A stretch of 64,000 nt of DNA from Raillietiella orientalis (GCA_036172245.1 JAYWIR010000008.1:4030001-4094000), one strand, 5' to 3'; positions 8,296-31,785 are shown, counted from the stretch's first letter. Numbers and translations are program-made. The notes: generated from the sequence alone by a model not told the origin.

Positions 8296-8344
8296 TCTCT
8301 TCCTCGGTCCGCCCCCCCTCCGCGTGTAAAAATTCTCTTCCCCG

Positions 8345-8456
8345 TTTTGGTTGTTTTTGTTTCCCCTTCTCCCACGCTGCCGAAGCGGATCTCGCCACTA
8401 TACGAACCGCTCTTCGGCAGGTTCATCGCACGTGGTAGAACAAAGAGTTCTACCAC
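8345..8456 (+). other. Conserved 3' non-coding module of copy A (pyrimidine tract plus terminal hairpin)
   Basis: Perfect 10-bp stem GTGGTAGAAC-aaaga-GTTCTACCAC (8432-8456). The preceding tract aligns with 20210-20255. Confidence 0.75.
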
Positions 8457-8480
8457 ATTTCTATGTATTTTTGTTATATT

Positions 8481-8491
8481 TATATAATAAA
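8481..8491 (+). promoter_or_regulatory. Overlapping TATA-like box and AATAAA poly(A) signal
   Basis: TATATAATAAA in a short AT island between copy A's 3' hairpin and the next ATG at 8546. Confidence 0.4.
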
Positions 8492-8545
8492 TGCCCCTGC
8501 ATAACCTGGTGCTAGTCATCCTAGCCACACGTTTCTAGTCACACG

Positions 8546-9300
8546 ATGCATCAGGACTGTCTCATATCCAGAGGGCTGTCCTCCTCCCTGCCGATCGCCC
8601 TCTGCGTCCCGAACGAGCGACTGCCCAGCTGCCTCCCCTGCATCTGCCTTGAGGAACAGCTGCAGAGGATTTGGCACGCGAGAAGTCGGAATTCTTCCCC
8701 AGGTAGGGATGTTGCCACGTCTGGGTCTCCCTCTGGGAGCAGGCGGAGGTGGAGGACACCGTGGAGGGGTTCTGTGAGGAGCGCGGGAAACCATGGAGTC
8801 CTGATTCAAGGGGCGTGCCGCTGTGCCTTCTCCTCGCCGAACTCCAGAAAGCAGCATCCCACGGGAAGGTGAGGAAACAAAGAAAAAACAAAACACAAGG
8901 AGGATGGTTGTTTGGGCACAGCTGTCCACGCCCGCAGGGCAAATCCGTCTCGGTATCTCACTGCGTGGCGCCTCGCGGGGGTCTCCCTCCCTTTCTACCA
9001 GGAAGGAGGACGAGGAGATTACGTTCCGGCTCTGTATTTTTTCCCCTCTGGCCTTCCGAGGAGGATGTGATGGATGAGACCGCGTCCACTTTGTCTGCAG
9101 CGGTGAACCAGCGTTGCCATGGGGAACGGTCCCAGCCGAAGAGCAAGGGGGAAGAGATGTGAAACGCACCTCCTTTCGCACCTCCTACGTCTGCTTGTAA
9201 ATCATCCGGGTCCAAGAAAAAGAGGACAGTGTGTCCAGATCACAGGAATGAAGCGGACGCCCGGCAGGGACGGAGGGAGCATAGAATCCAAGGAAGCAGC
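8546..9300 (+). pseudogene. Possible family X paralog directly downstream of copy A
   Basis: Protein-like fragments; GRDVKR (~9150-9170) resembles RDV.KR. An ATG lies ~60 nt after TATATAA. Confidence 0.3.
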
Positions 9301-10006
9301 GCATCCAGAAGATGGGAAGGGAAGGGAGCGAGAGCTCTGCTCCACGACCCATCCTCCGGGAAGTGCCGTTTCCTTGACTGCAGTTTTCCAAGGGAAATAG
9401 CGGTTCGACCAAGCCTCCGGCTGTCCTTCGGGGACGACGCGGTCACTCCTGAAAGCTCCTTAAGGGAGTAGGGAGTTTGTCTTTCGCCACCGCCAGTCGT
9501 CTCCATGATCCTCATCTCCCCTCCTTCTTAGTCCTTACCTGATTTTTCCCTCTATCTTGTCTAGAGGAGTGCGGATCGAATGAGACGTCCCCCCTTCTCA
9601 TATCAGGGAGGGCGTCCGCGCTTTTCTCCAGGTAGGAGATGCAGCCTTTTTTTTTTGTTTGGCTTCGTAGCACAAAGAAGTGGGGAGGAAAAGGGAAGAG
9701 AAACTAGCAAGCAGTCCCCCAAGAAGAAATGGACTGTCCCGCGGGCTTCGGTGCAACGCCCGAAGATCCGACTGGAGTTCGCCCTCTCTAAAAATAGAGC
9801 CATCCTCCGTTCCGTTCGGATGGCCGGTGGCTCGCGCTGCGCATCGACCTTCCGGTGGCCGCAGCTTTGACCGGCTAGCAGTGACCTGATCCGATAGCGA
9901 GAACTGGCTCCCCTGGATGGCGAGGGGCGTCCATTTGGGGGCTCCAGAAGACGCGGAACGGGGGATCAAGAAGGTGCTAGTCTAAGTTCGGAATGTTCTG
10001 AAATTC

Positions 10007-10600
10007 GTGAGCCAGCGGGCGCGCCTCGTGAAATCACTCACTACTTCTGACCTCCTTTCCCTCATCCCTCTCCTTCTGAGCTGCAGCCTTCCCCATCTCT
10101 ATGACCATGCGAGTGCCCACCCCACGTTCTCCTCCTGTAGCATTCGAGAACCTCTTGGCTTTGGTGAGAATCCTGGACGTTCTTTCCCTAGGCAAGGAGT
10201 TTGTCGGGACGTTCGGCGAAAGGCCCAGAGGGGATGGAGGCGGCTTTCGACATCATGTTGACGAAGGGAAGCTGGGAAGGGACCTACGGGAAATCCAGGG
10301 AAGGCCAGCCAGCGCTGGGGCGAGCTCGCGTCTCTCCTGAAGCTTTTAGCAAGGCGACTGAGAGAAGCTGAAACACGGGAGCAGATCAGGGATCAGGATG
10401 CTGGAAGACATGGACTTGACCTCCAGGGCTGCCAAGCTGGTCAACCCCGGACTCGGAGCCTGGGTCTGTTTCCTTCCGTGCTTTTCCTGGACCGCGGGGA
10501 TTACTGCGGACGAAGTTTCCCGGGGACCGCTGTCCCCGTTCGGCACCTCTTCTGTTTTTATGTTGACCTTCTCGGTGTCCTAGGAGCAAGGAGACAACCG
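10007..10600 (+). pseudogene. Family X N-terminal fragment
   Basis: KSLTTSDLLSLIPLLLSCSLPHLY has nucleotide similarity to 11680-11770. HHVDEGKL (10251-10274) resembles EHVDVGNL of copy D. Confidence 0.55.
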
Positions 10601-11639
10601 ACCTGCAGCAAGGGTGCGGAGACGACGCTCCCTGGGAGCAGCGGCACGGGAGCACTTCCGCCGGCACAAACGAAGCGGGTTCGCTCCCAGGAGTGGGTTG
10701 GAGGGGAGAGATGAGGGGTGAGGAGGAGAGGTCAATTCCTTGTGCGAGTTTTCCCCATCTCCACTCCAAGTCCCCAAGGCGTGCGGCTGTGAGCGCAAGA
10801 GGGCGAGAGCGACATCGTCCAGGAAAAGCAGAAAGCTTCATCTTCCCGGAAAGAGAGGGGGCTGGTGAGGAAGGGGAGGGAGAAGCCGAAGGCAGAGGAG
10901 TAGGACGGGAGATGATCGATGAAGGGAGAAGGGAGGAGAGAAAAGGTGGAAGATGACAGGGACGGCTGAGAAGAAGGGGGGGAGGAGGCAATGGCGAAGA
11001 GGAAGATGAGAGATGATGGATGACACGATGGAACTGAAGGAAGAGGAGCGAGATGGTCGCCAAGATGATAACGCTGTGATGGGTGACGACGATTAGGAGA
11101 AGGAATCGGGACTCCTTGGGATGAATGGTGGAGAGAGATGCTCTCCGGCGTTTTCTCCTACTGAAGTGCGCGGGGTATTCCCGTCCCGTCCAACGCCCAT
11201 CCAGTCTCTCCGGCGCTCCATGCGCCATCGAGGCCTCTCCAAGTGAGATGGAAGGGACGATAGAAGAAATCGCTCTCTCGAGTATATTCGCGCTCGCGGC
11301 ACAGGCTAACACCACCGACCCGCCGGTGCTGCGGCTGTCTCGCGCGCGCCCCACCGTCCGCTCGCGAGTTTACTGCGACAGGTAAAAATAGGTTTGATGT
11401 TGATTATAAATTTTTTTTTGGTTGCCAGCACAGGACGCGCTCGGGTCCTCTTTCAGCACCCCGGGTGATGAATAGCGGTGAACTAAGGGGAGGAGTGAGG
11501 CGTCTTGGAGACCATAGGAGCTTGGGTGCCCACGAAAACGCGTCTCTGCCCGCTCTGCCGGGGGCAGTGCCGTTCCTAGAACACTCCATCTGGCCTGTCA
11601 TCTCATCCTGCTCTTCGACATCTGGACCATCAGTGTTTG

Positions 11640-11800
11640 TGTGCGCAGCGACGCGAAAAGGCTGGCTACAGCGAGCCAGCAGCCTCCTTACGAGGTCACC
11701 CACTGCCTCTGATCTCCCTTTCCTCCTGCCACTCCTCTTGAGCTGCAGTCTCCAATACGCCTACGCAAACTGGCCCTGCAACACCCGTCGGAGACCGCGA
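11640..11800 (+). pseudogene. Family X N-terminal fragment
   Basis: RSPTASDLPFLLPLLLSCSLQYAY; about 80 bp is colinear with 10023-10103. Confidence 0.55.
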
Positions 11801-12599
11801 GGCTCGCCAGCTCCCTTCCCTTCCCGCTCCTCCCTCCCCCTCTTTTCCTCCCTTGCCTCCCTGCCACTTCCTCATCATTCCTACGATCCCTGAAAGGCAT
11901 GGCGGCCTCCTTGGCTGAAGGAGTGAAGGAGGGTCCTTGGAACTGCAAACGACGGCGAGACATCGGTCCTCCCAGCTTCCTGAATCAGCTGTGAAATAAG
12001 TTGTGGATGGGGAAGAGGGGGAAGAGGGAAGGTGGGAAGAGGAAGCAACAGGCGTCGGCGGGATCGCTAGGGGAGAGGAGAAAGGGGATTGATCTCGAGG
12101 CGCAAGCGGGGTGGGTGGAACGGTGCCTTTCCTCAGGGTCCGTGACCCAGCGAGGAGCTTAGCGAAGAGTTGCAAGTTTCCTGGATAGGAGACCTCAAGG
12201 AGGTAGTGGGAACTCTCCCTCGATCCTGGACACCGGGGATCCAGAACAGAGCCCCCCTTTGGCAGTCCTCCGCCTTTGCTCCCGCACGAGAGAGTCCTGA
12301 GTCTGCGAAACGAAGGGAGGGACGCTCCTCGATAGAGGAAGGAACCGGGCATAGGAGATAGAAGAAGGAGCCGAGAGCTTCTCCCTGCGCCTGCGGGGGG
12401 GAGGGCAGTCGAGTCCGGCGCTATTCGAACCTAAGAATTCTTCCCGATTGGGGTACGATTCTCTCGCTCATCCCACCGAGAAACGACGCAGGCCAAGTTG
12501 CGGCTTCTGGAACACCTCGAGGGTCCTCGGGAGCCATCAGCAACCTTCCTATCCACCTGGTCTGCGCCCTTCCCTTCCGGGAAAACTTGGCCGATGTTT

Positions 12600-13300
12600 C
12601 GTGGAGTATGGCTGGTCCGAGGAAGCGGCCGTGGGGAGCGGGATCCCCCAGAGGGCTAGGTGATATGAGGGAGGGAGAAGCGTCCTTCCTTTTCGGGAAA
12701 GTAAGGAACAGAGGGGAGAGGGTCCGTCCAACTCACCATGTTTGGGGCGTCCGCAATCTTCTCATCTCCGAATCACGGCCTCCGAGGCGGGTGCTCCGCC
12801 CGGGAGAGTGAGCGGCAAGCGCCACGGGACTTCCTTCCGACAGGACAGACTCGATTCCTGTCTTGGAAGAGAACCGGGGACTTTGGCAGCGAGTCGAGGT
12901 CACCGAAGGCGAACCTTTCGGGCGAGGATAGGGGCGAAGAATCGCTCCACAGTCGGAGGCGGTTTCGAAGGGAGGGTATGGGCTGTACCATTCATGTCCG
13001 GAAACGGGATGCGGTAGAAGGGAGAGGAAGAAACCACCTTACCCCTCTTTTCCTCCCTTGCCTCTCTACCACTTCCTCATCATCACCCCTAGAGACGGGA
13101 AGAATCCCGGAGACCAGGAGGTTCTCTCCAGATCCATGATGGCACCGGGAAATCCGGTGTCACTTGCTGCAAAGGAGTCGGATGCGAGCCGTGGGGACGA
13201 GTCCTCGTTTCAGGTCAGCCCTCGCTCGCTCGTCGGTGCGCCGCCCACCCGCCCGTCATCGGAAGCGTTCTCAAAGGGAAGGATCGGGACGTCCATGCTC
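12600..13300 (-). pseudogene. Family X paralog B
   Basis: On the minus strand: RTDERAR, ENLLVSGILPV, GVRWF (after a frameshift, ~13030-13047) and HLALWGIP (~12640-12665). About 170 bp is colinear at nucleotide level with copy C. Confidence 0.7.
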
Positions 13301-14569
13301 TCTCCGAGCGAAATGGAGGCGGCAACTGCCGCTTCCTCCCGTCATCAGGTGGATCCGATCGGGAGCGTCGGGAGAAAGGTTGCCGCCTCCGGTGGTGCCC
13401 TCTTCCTCGCCCCCGCCAATGGCGCCGCAAAGGGTGAAGGAGGAAGACTGTAGTCCGAATGGATGAAGACTTCTCCCACCTCTGCGAGAACAAGGCGCCC
13501 TACGAAAGGGCCGCAAAATCAGCCACCAGGCAGACGGACGACGCCCTTCGGAACTCTTCCGACGTCTCTGTGACGTCACCGCGGTGAATTCTGAAGGAGG
13601 CTCAGCCTGGCTCATCTTCGCGTTCTCGTCCCTGGGGCTAAGCCCTGGATGCAGGATGGAGGAGACATGACCTGCCGCCTAGGAAGGGACGAGATTTGAG
13701 ATGGGTTCTGGACAATAGCACGAATGACCTGAGGTTCGCGGAGGACGTGCGTGGCGATCTGAGAGGGGAACGCCGTCTCCGATTTCTCCTATGAACCTCA
13801 TCTCCCATCCCCTGTGTTCTTCTGCTGAAGGGGGAAGGAGGAGGAGAGGGTGGGTCCGAGGCATCCCCTTAGCGGCTGATGGCGCTCCTCAGCTCACGAG
13901 GAGGCCTTGAAAGAGGCTCAGGAGGCGTACACGTGCGCGTCGCAAGAGGAATAGCCCGAGGGGTCCTTCGACTCGCTTCCCAGGGCATCCATCATCTTTT
14001 GGACGGGAGGAGGGCGCGTGGGGATCTTTGCAGCCATCCCTCGAGGCCCCGGATGCCCGCGAAAGCCTCGTCCCCTCCCGCATGAATATCTGATCTTCCA
14101 GCAGGGGAGGACGAAGATCAGCTTCCCATCTACCCCATCCACAAGAATGCAAGGTCATCTCGGGGGACTGGAGGGGACGAGCAGGAGCCTCGGTGGGAAA
14201 ACCAGCTTCCGCTTCGTTTCGGGCCACCCGGAGGAGAATCCCGGACCTTTTGACCCTACAGAGGGGACGAAAGGGTGAGGAAGGGAGCATCCACTTCCGA
14301 CGGGAGCTCAGGGTACCTTCGCGATCCCCCACATTGCGGCAGCACTCTGAGGCTCTCTCTCCTGTAGCCCTGGAGAGCCGGATAGTGGACGCTGCTCCTC
14401 CCTGAGGAGACGCAGGGACCGTTCATCCCGGGGGGAGCAAGGAGGAACTCCGGGAGCGAAGGGTTCCGCTTCCTGGACTCTCTGAGAGAGCCGCCGTGTT
14501 CTCAGTCCCACAGAGACACGGCAGCTGCTGTGGCGCTCCCTCGGTCGCTTTCACGGATTGCCCGAGGCC

Positions 14570-15500
14570 CCATGAAGAGGCGGTCGTCCTCTCGCGCACG
14601 TGCGTACGCACTTGCGGGCGGGCGGGCTGCGCACTGACGAGCGAGCGAGGGCTGAACGGAATCGACAACTTGTCCCCACGGCTCACATCCGCCTCTCTTG
14701 CAGAGGGTGGCGCCGGAGTTCCGGGAGCCAACGTGGAGCTGGAGAGAACCTCCTGGTCTCCGAGAGTCCTCTCGTTTCTGGGGAAGAATCGACAAGGCAA
14801 GTGTCGGGAGTGCGGTGGTGTCGACCGCATGCGAGATCGCCCAGATTTCTCGACGGCCTCCGCTCGCCCGCCCTCGCGTAGGGACCTTCTCTTCGTGTGT
14901 GGCGGTGGCCTCCTCGCGTCCGCCGTGCAGCCACGTCGCCACTTTCCAAGGCAACGGTCGGGGAAAGAGGAAGAGGCACGAAGATGGGAGTGTGGGGAGA
15001 TGCAGGGACCTTCCGATGGTTCCTGAGGGAAATGAGAGGGAGGTTGTTCGGTGTTCCCAGGGGCAGCGCAGGACGCCTCGCTCCCTGCCATCCCACTCTC
15101 CGTTTCCTGGAATGCTACTCCTCCCTCCTTACTCCCGAGAGCTGTTCCGACCACGACACAGCCAGGGTTGCTGGGACGTGCAAGGTGCCTCTTGCACATC
15201 CCAGCAACCGGCCCACCGCGGGCGGGCGCTCTTCCTGCGGTCTCCTCCGCCCTCTGCGTTGCAGCAAGAGTGCCTGCAGCGCCAGCCGGCAGAGCTCACT
15301 CACCAGCGCGTCCCCTCTGGAGAATCCAGCAAGCGCCGAAGGTTCCTGGGATTCTTTGGCTCCCGTCCGCAGCTTCCCACACACGAGCGTTTGCCGCCGC
15401 CACCGCCAGTCGGGGAAAGCTTCCGGCGACCAAGAATAAAGCGGAGGCCGCTTTATTATCTTTTGCATAGACGGTTCCTCCTGCAATGCCCTGGAGCGTA
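14570..15500 (+). pseudogene. Family X paralog C
   Basis: GGLRTDERAR, ENLLVS and GVRWC (ORF 14600-14881). The stretch gagatgcagggaccttccgatggttcc resembles copy D's EFQDLQWY segment. It is the inverted partner of copy B. Confidence 0.7.
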
Positions 15501-15849
15501 GCGAGCTCTCCAGAGGCCGTTTTCGAAAAATTTGGAAACCAATGGCGCTTTCCAGAGCCAACAGCGCCAGTCTCCTAGGCGCTTCTCCGCTTCGGAGCCG
15601 TCCGTGCCGTGGGAAGCGCAGCCAAGATACGCAGGCGGGTCATGAGAGAGGTCTTACTTCTCCCTGATCCGGTGACCCGAAACTTTTTTTCATAGGGTGG
15701 CTCAGCACCCCCTTCTCAGGAGACCACCTGATCGACCCCCACGGGATACTGCTTCCGCTCTCCTTGAGACTCCGGCAGCGCGCGCTTCGCCTTTAGCTGG
15801 ACCAGATGCGAAAACCGAGGGCGGCTCCCCCCCCCCCTCACCGATGCAA

Positions 15850-16200
15850 CTACCTCAAGGGTCATCCTCTGTCAAGCAGACGCCTGGAGGGACCGTGAAT
15901 TTGGCGTCTCTGCTGGATCCCTGCTTCGGCAGTGGCTCTGACCGGATGGCGCAGCGAACCCTCGCCCGCTGCCATGAGCGATGCCCGCTAGACGGGAGGG
16001 TTCAGCCAACTCTCCCGGAACCTCAAGGTGCCTCCTGGAACTTCTGGTCTTCTTCCGGGAGTTCTAGGAATTTCCACACGCGAAGCACTTCAAACCTGGA
16101 AGTGCTTCATGACCGCTTTGTTCCCAACCAGACCGACCCCTCCCCTCCTTTCTCCGAGCAGGATTTTCCGAGTCGTAAGATGCAAAGGAGCCGCACTTAA
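15850..16200 (+). pseudogene. Possible family X C-terminal fragment
   Basis: GTSGLLPG, TREALQTWKCFMTA and RKMQRS (across frames) resemble GSGSLLPS, RDAMHSTTIFMRV and RMQ[RK]T. Confidence 0.35.
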
Positions 16201-18899: not shown

Positions 18900-20151
18900 C
18901 GGTCCCTCCAAGAATCGCAACCTGCGACGCCGCATCTCCGTGTGGCGGCTGAGGCGATCACTGCGCTTCCTTTCTTTCTCTCTCCCTCCTCCTTCCTCTT
19001 CCCTGCCTCCACCTTCGGGGCACCTTGCGAGAGGAAGAGGATGGGGCTCGCGCAGCCACGACATCGCCAGCTCTTTGGAACTTGGCTTCGTAGCTTCCAT
19101 CTCCAGAGCCATCCCGAGCACGTGGACGTAGGTAACCTCCGCACCGAGAGCGGGGAGAGGCAGCCTGTCCGTGACCCCGATGCCTCCCCTTCCCTCGGGG
19201 TCGGAAGCGCCGCTCACTGCCCTCAAACGGACCACAGAGTGATCTCAGAACTGCATCGTCATCCGCGTCCATCTGACACCGCGCCTCCGGCCGAACGCCT
19301 CATCTCCGGGATCCTGCCCGCTCGGGCAGACCCGAGCGACGCTCCTCAACAGTCTGTAGGGGCGGCCCCCGAAAGGGGCGTCAACCAGTCCTATGGTACG
19401 CGATGGTACGGCTCCCTTTTTGCAACCGGAGGATACCCCGAAGAGCTCCTTGGTTCCTGGAAGGCATCCCGGAGGGTCGACCTCCAGTTCCAGCAGGTCG
19501 ACGGGGGCATCCGGCTTCCATCAGAGCCCGCACCAGGGAAGTTGAAGTGACCATCTCCGGAAAGAGAAGAAGACTGGGCTAGTGGATGACGGTCCAGCTC
19601 AACGACTCTGCGACCCCGAGTGCTCGACCTCATGGACTTTTGCACTGGGACGAGCTATTATGAATTCCAAGACTTGCAGTGGTACCCCCCGTCGGTGCTC
19701 ATGAACACCCACATCCTCCTTATGAAATGGCAGGAGTCGGCGATGCTGCTGCTGTACTGGGGTCTCCCATGCAACGTCCGCCGGCATCTGTGGACACAGG
19801 AGGAGGTGTCGACCCAAAATTTCCCCACCTCCTAGTGGACTGTGCTGCCCTTCGACCCCTTTGGGCACGCTTTGCCGCTACCCTTGGAACCCCCGGAGGC
19901 AACTTCAGAGACGTCTGAAAGCGTCTCTTCCTGCGCGACGCCCTCACGGCGGCCGCATCCCCAGTAGCACTTTGCTGCCCACGCGGCGGGACCGTGGCTG
20001 CATGGAGCAGCGCCAGGACGAAAAGGACACCATCTATTTTTCTGTCCTCTTCATGAGGACAGAGTCAAGATGGCCCCATCTGGGAGTCGTGAAACAGGAA
20101 CTTGCCGGCATCCTTACAAGGATGCAGAAGACGCCCTCCGGCACACGATGA
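18900..20151 (+). pseudogene. Family X paralog D (most complete copy; unidentified protein with frameshifts and stops)
   Basis: Ordered motifs HVDVGNL (19119-19139), LISGILP (~19299-19319), GTRWY (19395-19409), MLLLYWGLPCNVRRH (19743-19787), CAALRPLWARF (19841-19873), KDTIYFSVLFMRT (20023-20061) and ELAGILTRMQKT (20098-20133), then TGA at 20149-20151. Each motif recurs in other copies. The 5' boundary is approximate. Confidence 0.8.
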
Positions 20152-20194
20152 TCCCTTCCCGAAGACCCTCATTTTTGGACTGTATTTTTTTATG

Positions 20195-20326
20195 TTTTGT
20201 TCTTTTGCTTTTTGTTTGTCTCCCCTTCCCCTGTGCTGCAGAGGCGGATCCCGCTGTTCTGCTTGCCGGTTCCCGGCAAGTTCCTTGTATTCATAAGTAA
20301 CGTGGCGGGATCAAACGTCCTGCCAC
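20195..20326 (+). other. Conserved 3' non-coding module of copy D (two hairpins)
   Basis: CTTGCCGG-ttc-CCGGCAAG (20262-20280) and GTGGCGGGAT-caaac-GTCCTGCCAC (20302-20326). Confidence 0.75.
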
Positions 20327-20387
20327 AGACATGTAGGTTTAGAAAGAATTGCTCCGACGTGACCAGGTGTCAACCAATGCCACCCAA

Positions 20388-20516
20388 ATAGGCCAATCAG
20401 CATCATCCTGTGGGCTAGGGAACTCGAAACCCACGACACGCTCGTCTCTCGCTGTTGATCTTTCCCCGGGCGGGATTCGAACCCGCGCCGCTTGGCGCCA
20501 TGCGCTTAGGCCACAG
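20388..20516 (-). mobile_element. tRNA-derived short element (SINE-like or pol III-type), copy 1
   Basis: Minus strand: A-box-like TGGCCTAAGCG, T-arm GCGGGTTCGAATCCCGC, and a second GGGTTTCGAGTTCCC motif. Colinear with 58122-58246. Confidence 0.65.
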
Positions 20517-21149
20517 ACAACGCGCACTTTGTGGGCGGGTGCGGCCCCGTCCTCCCTCAAGTGACAGCACATTCACGATGCTCTTCTGACTGCATCTCAG
20601 GACCCTCCCCCTCGACATGGTGCCTTCAGAGATTCGCTCCAGCGGGAACCGAGGAGACCTGGGACGCGCTGAGCCTGCGTGCGGTTCCCGCGAGAGAGAA
20701 AACCCGGGATTCCGAAGCTGCTCCAGGAAGGCGCTCCCTTGTTGAGCCAGGCTTTCCGACAGCAGCGACCCAGGCAATAAGAGCTCTCCCTCCATGCGGA
20801 GGGAGAACAGGGTCGCTCCTGCTTTTACCTCAAAACAGCTACGTCCACCAGACGGGACAGGCAGCGCCCCGCCGTGCGGAGGATCCCGCGACCTTGGAGC
20901 CGGTCGCGAAGTACCGGGAGCCGGCGGCACTACTCCCATGGACGTCTCGGGAACATGGGAAGTGGATGCATTCCCTTGGTCAGCAAGGATGATGCATCCG
21001 TCTCTGCACACCTTACGTGCTCCCCATAGGATTTCTCACGCGCTCGGGAACCCCACATCGCGGAGAAGCTCCCGGGTGGGCACACCCACCGTCCCCTCAT
21101 CCATTCGGACAGGAGGTCTAGCCTGGAGGAGATCGTGGTTCACTACCAC

Positions 21150-21500
21150 GCGACCTCATGAAGGGGTCGGAGCTCGAGTTCCCCGATTCCGCGCTCTCCT
21201 TTCTTCGAGCTCTCCCTACTGCCAACCTCGAGGAAGCATCTCAATCTCCGGCGGGACGCGCCGGATGCGGACTCACCCCGGGACGCCCTCGAGAAGATGC
21301 ACATCGGAGTTTCCCTTCTTCCCCTGGATCCTCCCCATCCTCTTCCGGGAGGAGGAAGTGAGCACCCACTGTCACTGCAGGTTGTATCGCGGCTCCTCCT
21401 GGAGGCTCCTGGCGAACAGGCTGCGACGCTGATGGCCCCTTGGTCCGCCGAAGATGGCGCAGAGGTCGCCTGCAGCGCCTTTCAGCAATGTCCCTCCCTC
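21150..21500 (+). pseudogene. Possible family X fragment
   Basis: REEEVST resembles QEEVST of copy D and is followed by a gctcctcctgg segment shared with ~43960. Confidence 0.25.
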
Positions 21501-22639: not shown

Positions 22640-22956
22640 ACGAAATGGCTCATGGCGTGGTGCTATCTTGGGGACGGTGCGCTCCCCTAATGGTGGGCCT
22701 TCCTCTCACCTTCACAGCCCCGAAAGGGGAACGCAGGAAGCCCGAGTCCGGGGAGAAAGGGAGAAGGAGGAAGCCCCTGGGAGTCCTGTCGGTGCAAGTG
22801 AGGTTGCCTCAGGGAGAGGGCCACTCTCAGTGCGCAGGGAAGCTGAATCTCCCTCGGAGGTCCCCTCATCCTCTCTTCCCTTCCTTCCTCCTCCGCTTCC
22901 CTGACGCGGCCCTCACGGATCCGCTGTCTGCTTTTGCAGGGAGAGAGTGGAAGTGA
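22640..22956 (+). pseudogene. Possible family X fragment
   Basis: VLSWGRC and FLLRFPDAALT; gccctcacgg is shared with copy D. Confidence 0.25.
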
Positions 22957-25389
22957 AGGAGGGCTGCCCGCACGCGCTGGGAAGAGCCCGGGCGAGTTCG
23001 CCTTTCCTCCTCCGGCCAGCGTAAAAATCTCGCAGCGACTCAGGAACAATCCTGCTGGGTGGGAAAGGGAGAGGGGGGAGGGAGCGTGGCGGCGTTGGAG
23101 CGGACTCCTGTAAAGACTTTGAGCGCTCATCTCCTTGGTCTTAGTCCTTCCCCACCTTCCGTTTTTGCTTGCTTCCTCCTCCTCCTCTTTATACTCTTCC
23201 CGGCCGCCTCCTCCCCTCGCCCCTCTCTCTGACCCCTGGAGCGGTCATCATAAGGGATTCCTCTGGAGGGTGGATGGCTCCTGAGATTGGCTCCGAACGC
23301 AGGAAGACTCTCGACGAGGGCGGCGTCGGGACTGGAAGAGGAGATCAGCAGCCGCCCAGAGCCTCTCGCACCATGAGGAGTGGTCGCCACGGATACGGGG
23401 AGGGGAGCTCAATCATCCTGCTTCAGGCTTAACGCAAAGATTCTTCTCCTCTACGTTTTCCGTGAGCGTAAGGAGAATTCGCTTGTGGAGAGTAGGAGAG
23501 GGAAGAGGGAGAGGAGAAGGCAAGGCAGGGAGAGAAGAACCCCTAGGAAGGGGCTGCTCGCCTCCTCTTTCCGCTCAAACGCTCGGGCTCATGGCCTGGA
23601 ATTTTGGGGACCCTTCGACCGACGGGAGGAAGCGGGGAGCAGGAGGTAGGCAGTGGCAAGTGTCCTGCATCCGGAGGGTGCCTCGTGAAACCTCTCTCTC
23701 GGGGAGAAGACGAGAAGGAGGGACAAGACGAATCCACGCCCACCCCTTTCCTTCTTCTCGATCTTCTATCCCTTCCGACTGCGCGAAGCAGGAAGGGAGG
23801 GAGGAGCATTCCCCGTGGGCGTGGTGTGAGGGCGGGGCGTGGGAAAAAGGGAGAAAGGACCGACCTTTTAGATGCCGCCGCTGGTCGCAAAAGACTGCGC
23901 CGGAGCTCCAATGCGGCACGCGTTCCCGCGCCCCAGAAGCGAGTGAGAACTCACCGTCCCATCGGCATGGAAACGCCTCTGTCCCTCCCCCGAAAACCCG
24001 ACGGCGGAGGCAGCGGAAGAGGAGGAGGAGACCGTCGACAGAGCCGTGAGCTGTGAGAGAGGGGGAACCCGGAGGGCGACGGTTTCTGAGGTGGAGGAAG
24101 AAGCCCTCGGGATGGTCACGACAGGCGTGCGTGACCCCTCCGAGGCGCGCTTGGATGGCAGTCGAAGGTCGCGGCTTCCTTGCGGCCTCAGAGGGGCCAG
24201 CGACGACGACGACGATGACGGAGGAATTCTCCTCTTTCTTTTCCTCTTTCCCCGTATTCCCCCCCCCCCCCCATACACACAGCACCACGAACTCCCTCCT
24301 CTCTTCCCTTCCCTATTCCAAGGGCGAGAGTGCGCTCAGCGACCACCCGAATCGGGTCTTCTCCTTTGAGGCCGCACAGAGGTCTGCGCCTCTCCTACCC
24401 ACTCCCAGAGGGGAGTGGGTAGGCACTCGTCCTTCCACTCACTCACTCCCCTCCTTCCTCCTTTTCTTGTTTTCTCTCTCTCCATCCTCCCCCGCACCTC
24501 TCCTCCTTGCCGCCAGCCTTCCGGGACTCCGCCGTGCCGGACGCTCCAGGAGGAGTGGAAGGATGCCTCGCGCAGCGAGGGGTGCGCTCGCCGCCGTCGT
24601 CTTTCCCGCTCAGGAATGCGCGCCCCCCGCTGCTCGCCCTCCCGCCTCACGGCGAGAAGCTGCACGGGAATGAATCATCGCCTCCGGGCCTCGCGACCTT
24701 GCTCCACCGCCACCTCCTCCGCCTCCCTTCCTCTTCCTCTTGTTTCGCCGCAGCTGCTGACTTCGTTGCCCCTGCTGCCGCCTCTGTCGGCTCTGTTGCC
24801 GAGGGCTTTCCTTCCCGCCATCAGTGCTGCCTCCAGCGGGGTTTCTGCTGCCGCTCCTGATTTGTTGTTGTTGTTCGTGGACGAGAACAATAATGAAGTT
24901 GTATCTGGCGTGGTGCTGCTGCTTGAGGAGTTGTTGCTGCGGAGGTTGCTGCTCCTTCAGGTTCCATGGACACATTGCTGTGCATCACTTTGGCCTTGTC
25001 TCTGCTGCCGCTGCATGGTGCAATGTTTCTCAGAGAGCGTCATCTTCCCGAAGGCAGCGCGGAGCTCTCCGAGCGCTCCTCGTGCCGTTTGCGCCCCTTT
25101 CCTGGCCTCCGACTCCAAGGTGAGGCGCAGAGTGACCGAGAGGACACCGGACGCAACAGTCCTCCCTCTCCCCCCCTTCTGAGAGCACTTCCCTTCCGTT
25201 GGTTTCCTTCCTTCTCCCAACCCCCTCTCCCCTTTCTCCGCGTTCTGCTTGCCGCTTCCATCGCCAGAGGCTCTGCAGCAGGCACGCGCGCCATCGGAAC
25301 TCCGATCGCGGCTGTTGCGGACGTGGTCAGTCGCGAGCAGCAGCCCACAAGCGGGTAGTCACTTTTTGCGTGGTAGCAGGAGTGCAGGT

Positions 25390-25930
25390 GCTCAGGTCGA
25401 GAACTCGCGAGAGTTCCTCCTGGAAGATTGTTCGAGGGCATCTCTGAAGAAGTCCTTTAGGAGATGGAGGGGACCGCTGCTTTCCCGCATCCCCTCCTCT
25501 CCCCCCCGGTCGCAGCGGCAGACGCTTCCCGCGAAAGTTCCGACCATCTGCTGACCTTCCCTAGGATGGAAGGGGAAAGAGAACGGAGGCGGAATAAGGG
25601 AAATGGATGGATGCTCCATGTCCCTTGCCGACGAGCATAAGCAGACCAACTGGGCAGCGGCAGTCGTTCGAAGCGAGCGTCCCCACAGAAACGGGTAACC
25701 TTGCCCATCGAGGGACGGTTGGTCTGCCTCTTGAGCTCTCACTTACCACAGCATCCGCCCGACCTTGGGGATTATTTTGAGCGGGAGACTCAGCGGAGCT
25801 GGTGGCCGTCTATCCATCCCCGTCCTTGAGGTACGGTCCAAAGTCTGCAGTGGTTGCTCCCAGATGCTTTTAAGCCATGAAACGACTTTCCGGGAAGAGT
25901 GAACCATACTCCCTTTCCACTGCCTCTCCA
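25390..25930 (-). pseudogene. Probable family X paralog
   Basis: On the minus strand GVWFTLP, YPFLWGR and LLKDFFRDAL occur in the expected order (compare GVRWFLP, LYWGL and KRLFLRDAL). Confidence 0.45.
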
Positions 25931-26479
25931 GAAGACGCGGAAGCTCTCTCTTGGAAGGGAGAGGGAGCTCTCGGCTGCCCTTCTTATTTTCCCGAGATTC
26001 CCTTCAGGAGGCCTCACCCGGGCAGACTGGTCTCCAGGGGCACCCCGCCTCCACCTTCACCTTGCTGCGGCGGAGTGAGGGGTGATGATCAGGGAGAGAG
26101 CAGGAAAGCAGGAAGCGTCCCAAGTCCATCCCTAAATCCACCCTTTTCTCTTAGTCACATGAAGGACTTCGAGGGCAAAAGAAGACGAAGGGTCTGAGTC
26201 TGGGCACCTTAGCAACCAAAGAACATTTCTTCCTCGAGGAGGAGGAGTCCTACTCCTCTGAGCTGGGAGCGTTGGGGACCTTCCATCAGCCCTGCAGAGA
26301 TTCCTTCTCTTCCTGGAAACAGTCTTTCAGGAGTCCAGGAGTTCCTTCTTGGAGAGGCTTTGGGACACTCCTGATGGAATCTGCTGCTTCCTCCTACAAG
26401 AGTCGACTCCCAAAGTCCCTTACAAGGGACTGGATTACTTGTCCCTTCCTTCCCCTATTCTTCCCTTCCTTCCTCCCTC

Positions 26480-27470
26480 TCGGCGCTTGTGACCAGTGCA
26501 GCCGTGATCCAACTGCCTATGAAGTGATCAGCCTCTTGTCTCCCATTGCTCCAGACATATGTACCTCTCTGCTCCCACCTCCTATCCTCCCGAGCTCGGA
26601 ACGCATGCTGCACTCAACTGCACGCTCATCCACATCTCCATCTCGTCTCCCATGGACCAGCGGAACATCCCCGTCTCCTCAAGGAAGCGACCTCTCTGGG
26701 GGCACGGACTCGTGGGACCGCCTGGAGATGCCAGGCACTGAGGGGATCCCACCAGCGAACTACGAGGTCGACCGAGCTACATCACGGAGACAATGAACAC
26801 TCCTCTTCCTTTTCCTCTTCCAGGTAACGTTTCTCCGGAAACCGTAGGAACCTCTTCCTCCCTGAGTCGGGGGTCCACGTTCCTCCACTGTGAGCATCTC
26901 GCGGAAGCTTCGAAAGCTGGGTCAGGTGCCTCTCCTGACCCGGAGATGTTCCACACGAGGATCCTGATCCGATCTTCTTCTCCAGGGACAAGAAAAGGTC
27001 AGGCAGAGGGCGAGATCGCTCTAGGATCCGCCCTACTAGCGGCTCAGCCCGAGAGATGTGCCGGGAAAAGGTAACCCTGCACAGATACGCTTCCTTCGTA
27101 CCGCTGTGCTTCCCTGGAAGGGGAAGAGGGAATCTCACAACGGCAGCAGCTGGACCCTTAAGGACATCCGGCCTCTACCCGTTTCTCTCCGTCCTCCTCC
27201 CCTTGAGCTTTGGCCGGCTCCCCTGTGTCAAGATAGCCCATAGGCACAAAGGCAAGACTGGAACCTTCCTGAGGAGAATAAGTTGCAGGAAGAGAGCGAG
27301 AGATGTCCTGCGCCTCTGCCTGCGCGAAGCAGCAGAGCGAAACGAGAATCGCTCTCTTCAGCGGCCGGGAGACGACGAACTCTTCCTGCAAAGGGGACGG
27401 GGATGGAAACAGCACTTAAGGAGTACAGCGAGTCATCCTGGAGGGAAAGGAGAAGGGGATGCGAGACCAC
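26480..27470 (+). pseudogene. Family X paralog F
   Basis: LLPLSFGRLPCVKIAHRH (27194-27247) and RDVLRLCLREAA (~27299-27334) match the WGLPC..RH and RDV.KRLFLRDA motifs. LHRYASFVPL matches the copy at ~5170. Confidence 0.6.
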
Positions 27471-27879
27471 CTGGACCTCAGCGCCTCCCCTCGGCTCGCG
27501 AGCGGCGGAGCTGCAGCTGCCTTCGTGAAGACGAACAAGGTCTGTCCTGCTTTGTTCGCGGATTCTAGGCGCGTGGAGGCGCGGACCAAGTCATCCGGGC
27601 GCGCTGACCTCTCACCCCGAGCGTCCTCGGGGTCCTCGTCGCATGCCCTTCCTCTGTCTGGTGCCAAGTCGCGGCCGACTTTTTCTGCTCTCGCAGACCT
27701 CAGACCGAAGAGTCGAGAACTTGCCCACAGCGCGCCAGGAGCGCCAGACCAGCGGCTGCACTCCTTGCTTTCCTTATCTTCCCCGAAAACCACGAATACG
27801 TCTCCTCTGACAACTCAGAGACCCCCGTTCCTCTCCTCTCCTTTGTTTCTTCGCTCCCCTCTTTCCGAACTCCCGCTGC

Positions 27880-28550
27880 CTCTTCCAGTTAGGCCATCGC
27901 TGAATGGAGGTCTCCTGCACCGTGTCTCTATCATTCGACCACAGATCTTCGCTCACGCGCCCTTTAGTTGCGATTGGTAACTTCCTCCTTCTCGTTCCTT
28001 CTCATCGTCTCGAACTCATAGAAGGGAGGGTGAGGAGTCAGGAAACGTATCCACTGCGGAGCACGTCTCCTGACCGGCACCCCGGGAGAGAGAGACCGAA
28101 AGCTCCCCCATTCCCATTGCGCGGAAAGCCAAAGGATGATAGCATCCACAGCACACCCTCTTCCTGCCCCCCCGCCCTCACAATGTTCCAGACTTCCGCA
28201 AAAGGCATCCATCCAGAGTTTTCCCTCTCGACCATCCCTGGAGCACTGGAAAGTGGCAGCGACTCCGCCTTTCTGGAGGACATCTCTCCCTGGAAGTCTG
28301 GATTCTGCCTGAGTTGCACAGGAAGGGAAGGAATTCAGCATGGAGATCGAACGCTGGTCCGAGCTGGGCTGAGCCTCTAAGGTCGCGAATCGCGGAATGG
28401 GCAGGGTCCAGCAGCAGTGCGACCCCGACTAGTGCTTCAGAGCTTCCCAGCCCCACAGTCGCTTCGTACCTGGTGCAAGCATGCCACCTTGGAAAGGAGG
28501 AAGAGCCTGAAGGCAGACCCCTGTGTCACGGTGGACCTTCGCCGCTTTCT
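27880..28550 (-). pseudogene. Possible family X paralog
   Basis: On the minus strand GDVLRSGY and NDRDTV...QRWP resemble RDV.R and [DN]x[KR]DT...RWP. Confidence 0.3.
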
Positions 28551-31500
28551 CACTGAGGGATGCGGAGACCGGAAATCATCCACAACAAAGAGCCAACTCG
28601 CGCTTGGCTCCCGAAAAGGCCACCTGGATCCTCTCCCATCATTCCCATTCTTCTCAGGTCGAAACAGGAAACCTCCACGGTTTCTAGGGGTTGAACCCCA
28701 GGCCTTCCCGAGGGTGCATTGCTCTTGTTCCTCGGTACCCTCCGAGTCCCTCAGGGAAGGCCACAAATTTCTTTCCTTTCTCTGATTCAGGAAGCTTCCC
28801 GTCGGCTGGAGCAGCTCTTCCTGAAAGACGCCCCTTTCTCCTCTCGACACGTCCTGCATTCCCTGCGTTCCAGAGTGCCCGCTCAGCCCTCGAAACAGCT
28901 GCAAATGACGAAGTCACAACCGAGCGCTCTGGAGGGAAATTCCAGGATAAAAGATTGGGATCTGGTGACGCACCTTTGGAAACCTTCGCGCTCCCATTGG
29001 GCTCCTCGTTGGCGGCCGCGTGGCTGCGGTCTTGGAGTGGCGCAGGCTGCGCCACTGCTCCGGTCTCGAGACGTTGATCTTCCCGCACGTCGGAACCGTT
29101 CTCTGAAACCGGGTATTACAGCTAGCGGGGAGGCAGGGGATCCAGGAGTCACCAGGGCAACCACCTGCCAGAACTGACACCCTCAAACGGACCAGACTTC
29201 GGTGATGAGAAGCAGCTCCCACACCCGGACGCTCCCCCGGCGAGGAGGCCTGCAGGGACTCATCAAGGCGTCCCCTGTAACTTCCCTCCTAGGACAATAT
29301 TTGAGATTCCCCGGTGAAGTCTTCCTGATTTCTCTCTTCCTCCTGCTCCCTCTCCACATCACCCCTATTCCCTTTTTTCCGGTCCGCGTGTGCCGAAATC
29401 ACTCCACTCCATTCTCCCCCGCGAAGATCTCCTGGCTGCTTCTTCTCCCCTCCTCCCCCAGAGAGAGGCAGATACGGAAGCGAAGAGAAAGAGTTCTCCG
29501 CTGCCGGCCCTTCTCCTAGCCCTCCGTCTGCTTCTTCCCCCTCCTCCTGTGGAAATCCTCCGCAAGCGGAACCTCCAGGAAGGTTCTCGGCTGAAAGAAG
29601 ATCCAGACGCCACTTCCCAGCATTTTCCTCTCTCTGGCAGCGCGGGAGTTCAGGAAATCCTCTCTTCCCCCTCACCGCTATCCCCAATACACGTCCCGGA
29701 GCCCTCCAGATCCCCGCCAAGGAGGGTCGACCGATGCTGGAGAAGGAAGGCTGCTCCCTGAGCTCCGTTGGGGCAGTGCCTCTCCGTTCCCGAGACCGTC
29801 TGGTGGAGGAGGAGAAAAAGAAGAGGAGGGAGAGGTTCTGAACGCACGCGGAAGTGATGTGCGTCTTGTCCTCCCGGAGAGCGCTTGCTTCCCTCGTTTC
29901 CATGGAGAGGGCTCCGACCAGAAGCTGTGCAGAGATTTTCGGCCTCGAGGAGGGCCGCGACGCTGTAAGGCTCCAGTCAGGAAGGGAAGAGGAGGAAATG
30001 TGGTGTCTCCCGGAAGAAGCGGACGTTTCGCAAGGAAAGATACGGAAGGAAGGCAAAAGGCCGGTCTTCTGGAGCGAATCAGCGTACGCACGGCAGCTCC
30101 AGGAACCGCAGGAACAGCCCCTTCCCTTCTTCCGTAGCACAGGGGACACATGGAGGCCGACATGAAGGGGGGGAAAGGAGGCATGGCAGGTAAGTACTCT
30201 CAGAATGGAATAGAGGCAACTCTGTGAACCCGAAGCGACGGAGGGATAGACAGAGGAACCATCCTTGAATCCCAAAAAGCCCACTCTCGCGAGGACCTAC
30301 GCTGCCTATGCCACCTTCCCTTCCTCTGGACTCGGAAGCGACATCAGGGACCGCACTCCCTCCCTCCCGAGGCCCTCTGGAGCGGGAAACGTTCCCGGAT
30401 CCGGGGACTCACAGCTCCTCCTCCCCAATCTGACACGCACGCGGGGCGTGGGTGGGTTGGAGTGGAGAGCGAGGACGCGAGTTTTCGCCTCACGTAGCCG
30501 CCACCCCACGCTCCCGTGCGCCAACACGAATTCTCTTTCGCCTGAGCTCCTCCGTTCATTCTCCGCGCGCCCACTGGTCCCGCGCCCTCCACAAGTGGCG
30601 ACAACGACTTGGCTGTTGTTCCGCTACCTCCACATCCTCACTCATCACCCTTCCCCCCCTCCTTTCCCCCCCCCCCTCCTGTCTTCATGTTCCGCCGTTG
30701 TGCTTTTCGCGATGCTCATTTCCGCTTGGCTCGCCACGGAGGCTGCCTCTTTCGGCGGCACCGGTCAACCGTAGCTGCAGTAGCGTTTTCCCCTGCGTTT
30801 TCGCCGCTTGTGTTCCCGGATCGCCTTAGGAAATTGCCGGGGATTTCCGCAGGAAAACTCCTCTCCTTTAATCCTCCTCCTCCTCCACCGTGGTGGCTTC
30901 ACCGTTGGTGGTCTCCTGCAGAGGCGCAGAGGAAGTAGCCGGTGGCTCACGTGCAGCGCGGTTCCCGACTCCTTCCCTTCCTTGTTAGCGCGCGCGCTTG
31001 CGATCCTCCAGCTTCCCTACAACCCTCATCCCACCTCGTCTGCCGCTCTCGGCCTCCAGACGGACGTCTTCTTGCCTTTCCAGCCCTCGGGACGGCAGTG
31101 GATCTTCGTCTGATCCCTATTCCCTTTCTACAGGGAGGAAACGTTGACTACGGGGGGTCGGTCCTCTTCGCAGCTGCAGCGCAGTGCGGACGCTGCCTCC
31201 GGAGCTGCGAGCACACGCCGAGGGTGTCTCGCTGTGGCATGTCCCGGGGCAGACGTCCTGGGTCCCTTGTGCTGGGAGACTCGTTCTTACACAAACGTGG
31301 TCGCGCGCGCGCGCGCCTCCCCCTCAGTATGGAGTGGAGGAGGCGCTCGCCGCGCGCCTGGCGGGGAAGGACGGCCGATCGCCTCGCAGCGGAGGCGCGA
31401 CGACGGCGAGGTGCACCCCGGCGGGTGCGGCTCCACGAGTCCACGAGCACCACCGCACCCTCGCGGCAGTCTCGCAGGAGGACCGGGAGCGATGGCGGTG

Positions 31501-31657
31501 GTGAAAGAGAGCTAGAAGGAGGGCAAAATTCGAAGGGGCTCTCCTCTCTGTGACACCGCCGAGAGGAGGACCGAGCAGGTGCGGGACTCAGGCCTGCAGC
31601 GGCCTCCGCGGCGGAGGGACGATGTTCGTCGAAACGAAAAGCAAGAAGCTCACGGCA

Positions 31658-31785
31658 GTGGTAGGGCTGCACCTCCTGCCGCATTCCCATGCTCAAGGGA
31701 AGGTGCCAGGATGCCGGCACGCTGGCGACCGATGTCCACCTGGGGAACAGAGGGAAGGTGAACTGGAAAAAATAAAATCAAATAG
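31658..31785 (-). other. Conserved 3' non-coding module of copy H
   Basis: Minus-strand T tract, GTGCCGG-catc-CTGGCAC (31703-31720), and a degenerate second stem (31658-31682) at about the same ~20-nt spacing as in copy D. Confidence 0.6.

What the first reader, a model, noticed from the sequence alone, without database searches (positions are those of the whole stretch)
8345..31785. Family X genes share a 3' non-coding module with covarying hairpins
Seen: roughly 100-175 nt after the stop, copy A has GTGGTAGAAC-aaaga-GTTCTACCAC (8432-8456) and copy D has GTGGCGGGAT-caaac-GTCCTGCCAC (20302-20326). There are two fully compensatory changes (T-A to C-G, A-T to G-C) and two changes to G-U. A second stem ~20 nt upstream also covaries: D TTGCCGG/CCGGCAA versus H GTGCCGG/CTGGCAC. 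A T/pyrimidine tract precedes both. Copy H's distal stem pairs better on the opposite strand, so RNA versus DNA action is unresolved. Inference: a selected cis-element for 3' processing or termination, RNA replication or packaging, or a mobilisation signal analogous to a Helitron subterminal hairpin.
Basis: partly seen in the sequence, partly recalled or inferred. Interest (0 to 1): 0.75.

Follow-up and report, generated by a model that had tools for sequence, protein, structure and literature searches.

The report
Hairpins in three decayed retrotransposon tails
The shared "3' module" belongs to three old, broken copies of what looks like the tail end of a LINE-type jumping gene, and its small hairpin near the end is most likely the handle by which such elements recognise their own RNA, which is a known kind of feature.

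Summary
The hairpins exist where stated: A 8432-8456 is a perfect 10-bp stem, and D 20302-20326 has 8 Watson-Crick plus 2 G-U pairs. The A/D differences are six transitions, giving two compensatory pairs and two G-U pairs.

"Family X" is not an eight-gene family. DNA profile, protein profile, covariance model and tblastx find only three copies: A about 7874-8480 (+), D about 19705-20350 (+) and H about 32234-31636 (-). They are 67-70% identical.

Each copy is a roughly 600-650 bp unit. It holds a decayed coding remnant with a Cys-His motif, intact only in A, then a conserved TGA and a 3' UTR. D has an in-frame stop and H a frameshift.

The best reading is three 5'-truncated tails of one LINE-like retrotransposon, with a subterminal hairpin 20-25 nt from the element end, as in "stringent" LINE tails. 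Support for the LINE identity is indirect: a protein-atlas lead to zf-RVT, a codon-position signal and earlier scan notes. There is no Pfam hit and no reverse transcriptase nearby.

Covariation is suggestive (p about 0.04-0.07) but not significant with three sequences (107 of 500 shuffles). No further copies could be obtained. The scan has reported similar LINE tails elsewhere in this genome. This is an ordinary kind of feature, of low to moderate interest.

The parts
7874..8480 (+). Copy A: repeat unit made of a coding remnant plus a 3' UTR. It has the longest open frame (7760-8197) and the only intact C-x2-C-x7-H-x4-C motif (starts 7928).
   Evidence: nhmmer; local alignments; regex; translation
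8198..8200 (+). TGA conserved in position in all three copies; the presumed ORF stop (D 20054-20056, H 31848-31846).
   Evidence: alignment; coordinates
8252..8269 (+). Proximal hairpin P0 in A (8-bp arms, 2 nt between). It lies in the 63-nt block 8241-8303, the best conserved stretch between A and D, and is absent from H.
8334..8374 (+). T/pyrimidine-rich tract of copy A.
   Evidence: read
8377..8420 (+). A-specific 9-bp stem (8377-8385 with 8412-8420) at the place where D and H have the short 'second stem'.
8432..8456 (+). Distal (subterminal) hairpin of A: perfect 10-bp stem with a 5-nt loop.
19705..20351 (+). Copy D: the same unit, with an in-frame stop at 19916-19918. Its 3' end abuts another repeat that starts at 20352.
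20108..20125 (+). Proximal hairpin P0 in D. Seven of the eight stem pairs are the same as in A; the pair next to the loop is G-C in A and T-A in D.
20096..20285 (+). Long-range inverted repeat in D (20096-20113 with 20268-20285; 18 nt, 89% complementary). It closes the U-rich region. A has a 10-bp counterpart, 8242-8251 with 8415-8424, that includes G-U pairs.
20262..20280 (+). Second stem in D (8 bp, 3-nt loop).
20302..20326 (+). Distal hairpin of D: 8 Watson-Crick plus 2 G-U pairs with a 5-nt loop.
31636..32234 (-). Copy H: the same unit on the minus strand. It is frameshifted and lacks the roughly 70-nt block that holds P0.
31703..31720 (-). Second stem in H (7 bp including one G-U, 4-nt loop).
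31658..31682 (-). Position in H homologous to the distal hairpin: 6 of 10 pairs on the sense strand and 9 of 10 on the antisense strand.

Best explanation
A, D and H are three old, 5'-truncated and decayed copies of the 3' end of one LINE-like (non-LTR) retrotransposon family. Each copy keeps three parts:
- about 250-350 nt that once encoded the C-terminal Cys-His region of ORF2;
- the ORF stop;
- a 3' UTR of about 280 nt (A, D) or about 210 nt (H).

The '3' non-coding module' is that UTR. The distal hairpin lies 20-25 nt before the end of the element.

Inferred mechanism, by analogy with 'stringent' LINEs: the element's reverse transcriptase binds this structured RNA tail to start target-primed reverse transcription on its own transcript. 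Stems therefore stayed paired while the active lineages diverged, and they decayed after insertion, as in H.

Shown: three dispersed copies, their common 3' limit, the hairpins, the compensatory pattern and the past coding constraint.
Inferred: the LINE identity and the RT-recognition role.
For: (1) Dispersed repeat, not a gene family.
- Only three units of about 600-650 bp are found, in both orientations. They are 67-70% identical.
- No other homology between their surroundings was found.

(2) A coding past.
- In 7961-8197 the second codon position differs less (0.27-0.34) than positions 1 and 3 (0.45-0.59) in all three pairs. After the stop there is no such pattern.
- The copies are now broken: D has an in-frame stop and H changes frame.

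(3) Cys-His motif and family lead.
- A carries C-x2-C-x7-H-x4-C followed by a conserved C-A-A-L-R-x-L-W block shared by all three copies.
- The protein-atlas search puts A nearest to clusters carrying Pfam zf-RVT (PF13966): 19 of 30 hits, top score 0.92.

(4) Element end.
- A/D/H homology stops about 20-25 nt after the hairpin.
- In D an unrelated repeat starts at 20352.

(5) The hairpin.
- It is perfect in A and fully paired in D despite 6 of 20 stem differences. Exact enumeration gives 0.074 for staying fully paired and 0.036 for doing so with at least 2 double changes.
- RNAalifold keeps this hairpin in the consensus.

(6) Strand.
- The sense strand folds better than shuffles (z = -2.99, -3.88, -1.56), and better than the antisense strand (z = -2.39, -3.16, +0.10).
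- D's two G-U pairs exist only on the sense RNA.

(7) Literature: stem-loops with compensatory changes near the 3' end are described as common in stringent-type LINEs and SINEs (PMC3472496, passages read; listing and abstract openings of PMC4176376 and PMC1636434).

(8) Earlier scan notes (unchecked leads) report decayed LINE tails with zf-RVT-type motifs and covarying 3' UTR hairpins elsewhere in this genome.
Against: - No Pfam family, zf-RVT included, matches any of the 5 A/D/H frames at E up to 10.
- No reverse transcriptase or endonuclease was found. This covers 134 ORFs of at least 165 aa over the whole window and 107 ORFs of 45-164 aa within about 5 kb upstream of the copies.
- An exhaustive phmmer search of 1.84 billion representatives gave only 6 weak hits, to repetitive or unrelated proteins.
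- The atlas lead is weak by the tool's own measures: recognition 2272 is below 2300 and 154 shared features is below 170. Copy H gave no usable hit.
- The Cys-His regex also matches 4 unrelated places in the window.
- The 5' limits of detectable homology lie within about 60 nt of each other (in A's coordinates, about 7814-7874). That is not what random 5' truncation predicts.
- No poly(A), 3' repeat or target-site duplication could be recognised.
- Covariation is not significant by column shuffling: 107 of 500 shuffles reach the observed score.
- H's stem is broken on the sense strand (6 of 10) and better on the antisense strand (9 of 10).
- The second stem is not shared by A.
Confidence: 0.6

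Rival explanations
1. The units are LINE-like (or other repeat) debris, but the hairpins have no function. They would be relics of an ancestral palindrome that happen to remain paired in two of three copies.
For: - With n=3 the shuffle control is not significant (107 of 500).
- The conditional probabilities are only 0.036-0.074.
- H is broken on the sense strand.
- The second stem is absent in A.
- All A/D stem differences are transitions, so double changes are automatically complementary.
Against: - A is perfect and D fully paired at about 30% stem divergence.
- Sense-strand z-scores of -3 to -3.9 for A and D.
- The position close to the element end matches known functional tails (PMC3472496).
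- The P0 block is the most conserved part of the whole unit between A and D.
Confidence: 0.2
2. A, D and H are terminal exons plus 3' UTRs of a real host gene family, and the hairpins act in mRNA 3' processing, stability or localisation.
For: - The 5' limits of homology fall at nearly the same place in all three copies.
- In H that limit lies just after a pyrimidine tract ending in CAG, which looks like a splice acceptor (read).
- There is a past coding signal.
- The stop is conserved.
Against: - D has an in-frame stop and H a frameshift.
- There is no homology in any upstream exon-like sequence.
- No protein relatives were found in 1.84 billion representatives.
- There are only three copies, one of them inverted.
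- The atlas lead points to a retroelement domain.
Confidence: 0.12
3. The hairpin is a DNA-level terminal signal of a DNA transposon, such as a Helitron-like subterminal hairpin, or it acts on the opposite strand.
For: - H pairs better on the opposite strand (9 of 10 against 6 of 10).
- The hairpin is subterminal.
Against: - No conserved CTRR-type terminus follows the hairpin in the three copies (read).
- No Rep/helicase or any other Pfam domain is found nearby.
- The unit runs in the same orientation as a coding remnant.
- D's G-U pairs become C-A mismatches on the other strand.
- Antisense z-scores are weaker in all three copies.
Confidence: 0.05

Closest known systems
3' tail stem-loops of 'stringent'-type LINEs (eel UnaL2, zebrafish ZfL2; the monocot L1 lineage LINE1-1_ZM described by Ohshima 2012, PMC3472496)
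   Same: - A short stem-loop lies close to the 3' end of a LINE 3' UTR.
- The stem letters vary while pairing is kept through compensatory changes.
- The sense-RNA orientation is the one that fits.
   Different: - No partner SINE sharing the tail was found in the window.
- There are only three decayed copies.
- The loop is not conserved (three different 5-nt loops).
- There are extra elements not described for those tails: an almost sequence-invariant proximal hairpin and a long-range helix in A and D.
- LINE identity itself is inferred, because no RT is present.
5'-truncated L1/Tx1-like LINE fragments with an ORF2 C-terminal Cys-His (Pfam zf-RVT type) region, as earlier notes of this scan report for other windows of the same genome (e1-7589695, e1-7589692)
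   Same: - Short, old, dispersed tail fragments in both orientations.
- A Cys-His motif followed by a 3' UTR.
- No RT left.
   Different: - No sequence match to any stretch indexed by the scan, so this is a different or more diverged lineage.
- Those notes describe AATAAA-plus-hairpin tails, which these copies do not show before their hairpin.
Helitron 3' subterminal hairpin
   Same: A short GC-containing palindrome a few tens of bases before an element end.
   Different: No CTRR terminus and no Rep/helicase. The coding remnant and strand evidence point to an RNA-level feature.

Membership tests
Non-LTR retrotransposon (LINE), L1/Tx1-like | Reverse transcriptase (and APE endonuclease) domain in ORF2 upstream of the tail | tested here: not met
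   No RVT or any other Pfam family at its gathering score in 134 ORFs of at least 165 aa over the whole window, nor in 107 ORFs of 45-164 aa within about 5 kb upstream of A, D and H. This is expected for 5'-truncated fragments, but it leaves membership unproven.
Non-LTR retrotransposon (LINE), L1/Tx1-like | C-terminal Cys-His (CCHC, zf-RVT-type) motif near the end of ORF2 | tested here: inconclusive
   C-x2-C-x7-H-x4-C is intact in A only. Pfam zf-RVT gave no hit at E up to 10. The atlas search gave 19 of 30 hits in zf-RVT clusters at 0.92, which is weak by the tool's own criteria, and H gave no hit. That this motif is typical of L1-like ORF2 is recalled knowledge.
Non-LTR retrotransposon (LINE), L1/Tx1-like | Copies share the 3' end and differ in 5' truncation point | tested here: inconclusive
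   A common 3' limit about 20-25 nt after the hairpin. The 5' limits of detectable homology lie within about 60 nt of each other, so variable truncation is not shown.
Non-LTR retrotransposon (LINE), L1/Tx1-like | Poly(A) or simple-repeat tail and target-site duplications | tested here: inconclusive
   No poly(A). A is followed by an AT-rich stretch (about 8460-8493), while D and H are not. No formal search for target-site duplications was made, and at this divergence they could hardly be recognised.
Stringent-type LINE 3' tail | Stem-loop close to the 3' terminus of the element | tested here: met
   The hairpin ends at 8456 in A and 20326 in D. Homology ends at about 8480 and 20350, and an unrelated repeat starts at 20352.
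Stringent-type LINE 3' tail | Compensatory changes keep the stem paired | tested here: inconclusive
   Two double changes and two G-U pairs between A and D (p = 0.036-0.074). The shuffle control reaches the observed score in 107 of 500. H is broken at 4 of 10 pairs.
Stringent-type LINE 3' tail | Tail shared with a partner SINE | tested here: not met
   Covariance model R1, run with filters off over the 64-kb window, finds only A, D and H. The SINE-like repeat next to D does not carry the tail at its other copy. Only this window could be searched.
Stringent-type LINE 3' tail | Tail required for retrotransposition and bound by ORF2 protein | not testable with these tools
   Needs a retrotransposition or binding assay.
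Helitron terminus | CTRR 3' end about 10-12 nt after the hairpin; Rep/helicase in autonomous copies | tested here: not met
   No conserved CTRR after the hairpin in the three copies (read). No Pfam domains.
Any curated RNA family (Rfam 15) | Match to a covariance model | tested here: not met
   0 matches at gathering score over the window. At E up to 1 there is only a chance FinP match in 7900-8520 and nothing in 19700-20600.

The most novel reading that the evidence does not exclude
The 3' UTR is a multi-part RNA fold specific to an undescribed LINE lineage of this unidentified GC-rich eukaryote. It would consist of a proximal hairpin kept almost letter for letter in A and D, a long-range helix that loops out a U-rich tract, and a covarying subterminal hairpin. 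Together these would form a new type of reverse-transcriptase recognition module, possibly with alternative pairings of the repeated CTTGCCGG motif.
Probability: 0.2. Interest if true: 0.4.

Novelty: new member of a known kind. Interest (0 to 1): 0.22.

Why it matters
If the reading holds, it adds one more lineage to the LINEs that recognise a structured 3' tail rather than poly(A), in a genome that other windows of this scan describe as unusually rich in such elements. It also corrects an annotation trap: these are transposon tails, not a host gene family with a regulatory 3' UTR. By itself it opens no new question.

Tried and rejected
- Whole genome: none is held for this window.
- Sequencing runs: none was listed for 7500-9000, and no RNA holder was listed.
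- Metagenome pattern scans: the P0 block pattern gave 0 loci. The coding-motif pattern gave 4 loci (L001-L004) that match only the pattern itself, so they are chance matches.
- Earlier-findings look-ups by sequence: 0 look-alikes in each of 3 look-ups.
- Word-index protein search for longer relatives of A's frame: none at E up to 0.01.
- Exhaustive phmmer search: 6 hits with E between 5e-7 and 7e-4. They are cystatin/papain repeat proteins, a repetitive 1245-aa protein and short unrelated proteins, judged spurious.
- PDB sequence search: only a cytochrome bo3 subunit at E = 0.003, judged spurious.
- AlphaFold2 on the 3-row alignment: mean pLDDT 50.6, too poor for a fold search, so none was run.
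It was replaced by an ORF-by-ORF scan.
- Regular spacing: the TGAs are 11,856 and about 11,794 bp apart, which suggested an old tandem array. This was rejected because H is inverted, the spacing depends on the anchor chosen (11,870 against 11,380 from the hairpins), and no other homology exists between the intervals.
- The idea that D's hairpin belongs to the neighbouring SINE-like repeat was rejected because the other copy of that repeat (58124-58287) has no such hairpin beside it.
- A-D similarity further downstream of the hairpin is not above shuffles (score 28 against 23.6 +/- 3.5).
Full report
**What is there**

The window is GC-rich (about 60%). CpG is not depleted (observed/expected 0.89) and TpA is strongly depleted (0.37). 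It has no tRNA and no Rfam match at gathering score. No Pfam family reaches its gathering score in 134 open frames of at least 165 aa. No whole genome is held for it.

- Copy A carries a perfect 10-bp stem with a 5-nt loop at 8432-8456.
- Copy D carries the homologous hairpin at 20302-20326, with 8 Watson-Crick and 2 G-U pairs.
- Perfect 10-bp hairpins with 3-8-nt loops occur at 5 loci in the window, against 0-2 per simulation in 10 first-order Markov simulations.

**How many copies, and of what**

Every search I could run finds the module in just three places:
- a DNA profile of the aligned units, run with nhmmer;
- a protein profile, run over all 6-frame ORFs of at least 25 aa;
- a covariance model of the stem region, run with all filters off;
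- a tblastx self-comparison of bases 1-40,000.

The three places are A about 7874-8480 (+), D about 19705-20350 (+) and H about 32234-31636 (-). Local alignments give 67-70% identity. The only other repeat in the first 40 kb is an unrelated inverted pair at 13.1 and 14.7 kb. "Family X" as an eight-member gene family is therefore not supported. What exists is a three-copy dispersed repeat of roughly 600-650 bp.

**Anatomy of the unit**

- *Coding remnant.* The 5' part looks like a former coding region. A has an open frame, 7760-8197, with a C-x2-C-x7-H-x4-C motif starting at 7928. All three copies share the following block, C-A-A-L-R-x-L-W.
- *Coding signal.* In 7961-8197 the second codon position differs less (0.27-0.34) than positions 1 and 3 (0.45-0.59) in all three pairwise comparisons. 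After the stop there is no such pattern. The lineages therefore diverged partly while this frame was being translated.
- *Stop and breaks.* A TGA is conserved in position in all three (A 8198-8200, D 20054-20056, H 31848-31846). The copies are now broken: D has an in-frame stop at 19916-19918, and H changes frame between the motif region and the TGA.
- *Proximal block.* In A and D a 63-nt block follows the stop (8241-8303 and 20097-20159). It is the best conserved part of the unit and holds a small hairpin, P0 (8252-8269 and 20108-20125). Seven of its eight stem pairs are identical in A and D. H lacks about 70 nt here.
- *Pyrimidine tract and second stem.* A T/pyrimidine-rich tract comes next, then the "second stem". 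This stem is 8 bp in D (20262-20280) and 7 bp in H (31720-31703), with one pair changed on both sides. A does not form it and has a different 9-bp stem instead (8377-8385 with 8412-8420).
- *Long-range pairing.* In D the 5' flank of P0 is complementary to the 3' arm of the second stem (20096-20113 with 20268-20285; 18 nt, 89%). A has a 10-bp counterpart with G-U pairs. The minimum-free-energy folds of both A and D use this long-range pairing.
- *Distal hairpin.* It comes last. Measured from the conserved TGA it starts 232 nt (A), 246 nt (D) and 164 nt (H) downstream, not 100-175 nt.
- *Element end.* Similarity among the copies ends about 20-25 nt after the hairpin. Further downstream the best A-D local score is 28, against 23.6 +/- 3.5 for shuffles. 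In D an unrelated repeat begins at 20352.

**Is the covariation more than chance?**

A and D differ at 6 of 20 stem positions, all transitions. Four of these make two compensatory pairs, two make G-U pairs, and none breaks a pair.

I enumerated every way of placing six transitions on A's stem. All ten pairs survive in 2850 of 38,760 placements (0.074). They survive with at least two double changes in 1380 of 38,760 (0.036). That is suggestive only.

The formal count on the three-row alignment covers 17 pairs, with 76.5% of cells paired and 2 pairs changed on both sides. It is not significant, because 107 of 500 column shuffles reach the observed covariation score. RNAalifold does keep the distal hairpin in its consensus.

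H goes against the pattern. At the homologous position only 6 of 10 pairs form on the sense strand, while 9 of 10 form on the antisense strand.

On strand, the sense strand folds better than shuffles in all three copies (z = -2.99, -3.88 and -1.56). It also folds better than the antisense strand (z = -2.39, -3.16 and +0.10). D's G-U pairs exist only on the sense strand. I read H as a decayed copy, but three sequences cannot settle this.

**What it most likely is**

The units fit the decayed tails of a LINE-type retrotransposon:
- they are short, dispersed and in both orientations;
- they share a 3' limit;
- they consist of the end of a former ORF with a Cys-His motif plus a 3' UTR.

That such a motif closes L1-like ORF2 proteins is recalled knowledge, so I tested it. 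Pfam gives no hit for any of the 5 frames, even at E up to 10. The protein-atlas search places A's frame nearest to clusters carrying Pfam zf-RVT (19 of 30 hits, top score 0.92). By the tool's own measures this is a weak lead, and H's frame gave no usable hit.

No reverse transcriptase lies within about 5 kb upstream of any copy. That fits 5' truncation, but it leaves membership unproven.

Against simple truncation, the 5' limits of detectable homology lie within about 60 nt of each other. In H that limit follows a splice-acceptor-like tract, which keeps the host-gene rival alive at low odds.

Earlier notes of this scan are unchecked AI leads. They describe the same genome as full of L1/Tx1-like LINEs with covarying 3' UTR hairpins, and with old tail fragments carrying zf-RVT-type motifs. 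None of their indexed stretches resembles A, D or H in sequence.

**How it would work**

In "stringent" LINEs the element's reverse transcriptase must recognise the 3' tail of its own RNA. A stem-loop with variable stem letters and compensatory changes near the 3' end is described there as common. I read passages of Ohshima 2012 (PMC3472496). For PMC4176376 and PMC1636434 I saw only the search listing and the openings of the abstracts.

The distal hairpin here has the right place, the right strand and a hint of the right substitution pattern. I therefore put the RT-recognition reading first, at about 0.6 for the whole picture. The role of the hairpin itself is less certain than the repeat nature of the units.

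**Limits**

The decisive test needs many copies. None could be obtained:
- no genome;
- no sequencing run listed;
- nothing but chance matches in metagenome contigs;
- no protein relatives.

A structure prediction was too poor to use. The supplementary figures of PMC3472496, which show the hairpins it describes, were not seen.

**Verdict**

The object is an ordinary kind, a structured LINE tail surviving in three decayed copies, so interest is low to moderate.

Noticed in passing
window 20352-20513 (+) and 58124-58287 (opposite orientation): A second dispersed repeat of about 160 bp: local score 128 against about 25 for shuffles, and 82% mean column identity. By eye it has two tRNA T-arm-like GGTTCGA motifs on the minus strand at 20.4 kb and the plus strand at 58.2 kb. 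ARAGORN finds no tRNA, and Rfam gives nothing for the 20.4-kb copy at E up to 1 or for either copy at gathering score. It may be a tRNA-derived SINE. Its end abuts the 3' end of copy D, tail to tail.
   Followed up: partly
window 13087-13255 and 14783-14615: An inverted pair of 169 nt at 82% identity (tblastx up to 95 bits), unrelated to A/D/H. It may be two fragments of another repeat lying head to head.
   Followed up: no
window 15435-15457: A perfect palindromic hairpin, AATAAAGCGG-AGG-CCGCTTTATT. It recalls the 'AATAAA plus GC hairpin' LINE tails that earlier notes report elsewhere in this genome. Not examined further.
   Followed up: no
window 24395-24422 and 16082-16108: Two further perfect hairpins: a 12-bp stem with a 4-nt loop at 24395-24422, and a 10-bp stem with a 7-nt loop at 16082-16108. 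Origin unknown.
   Followed up: no
whole window: The dinucleotide profile is unusual. TpA is strongly depleted (0.37) and CpG is not depleted (0.89). GA/TC/AG/CT are enriched (1.2-1.4), with many purine and pyrimidine tracts. No Pfam domain reaches its gathering score in 134 long ORFs.
   Followed up: partly
window 8198, 20054, 31848: The conserved TGAs of the three copies are 11,856 and about 11,794 bp apart. I judged this a coincidence, because H is inverted and no other homology exists between the intervals.
   Followed up: yes
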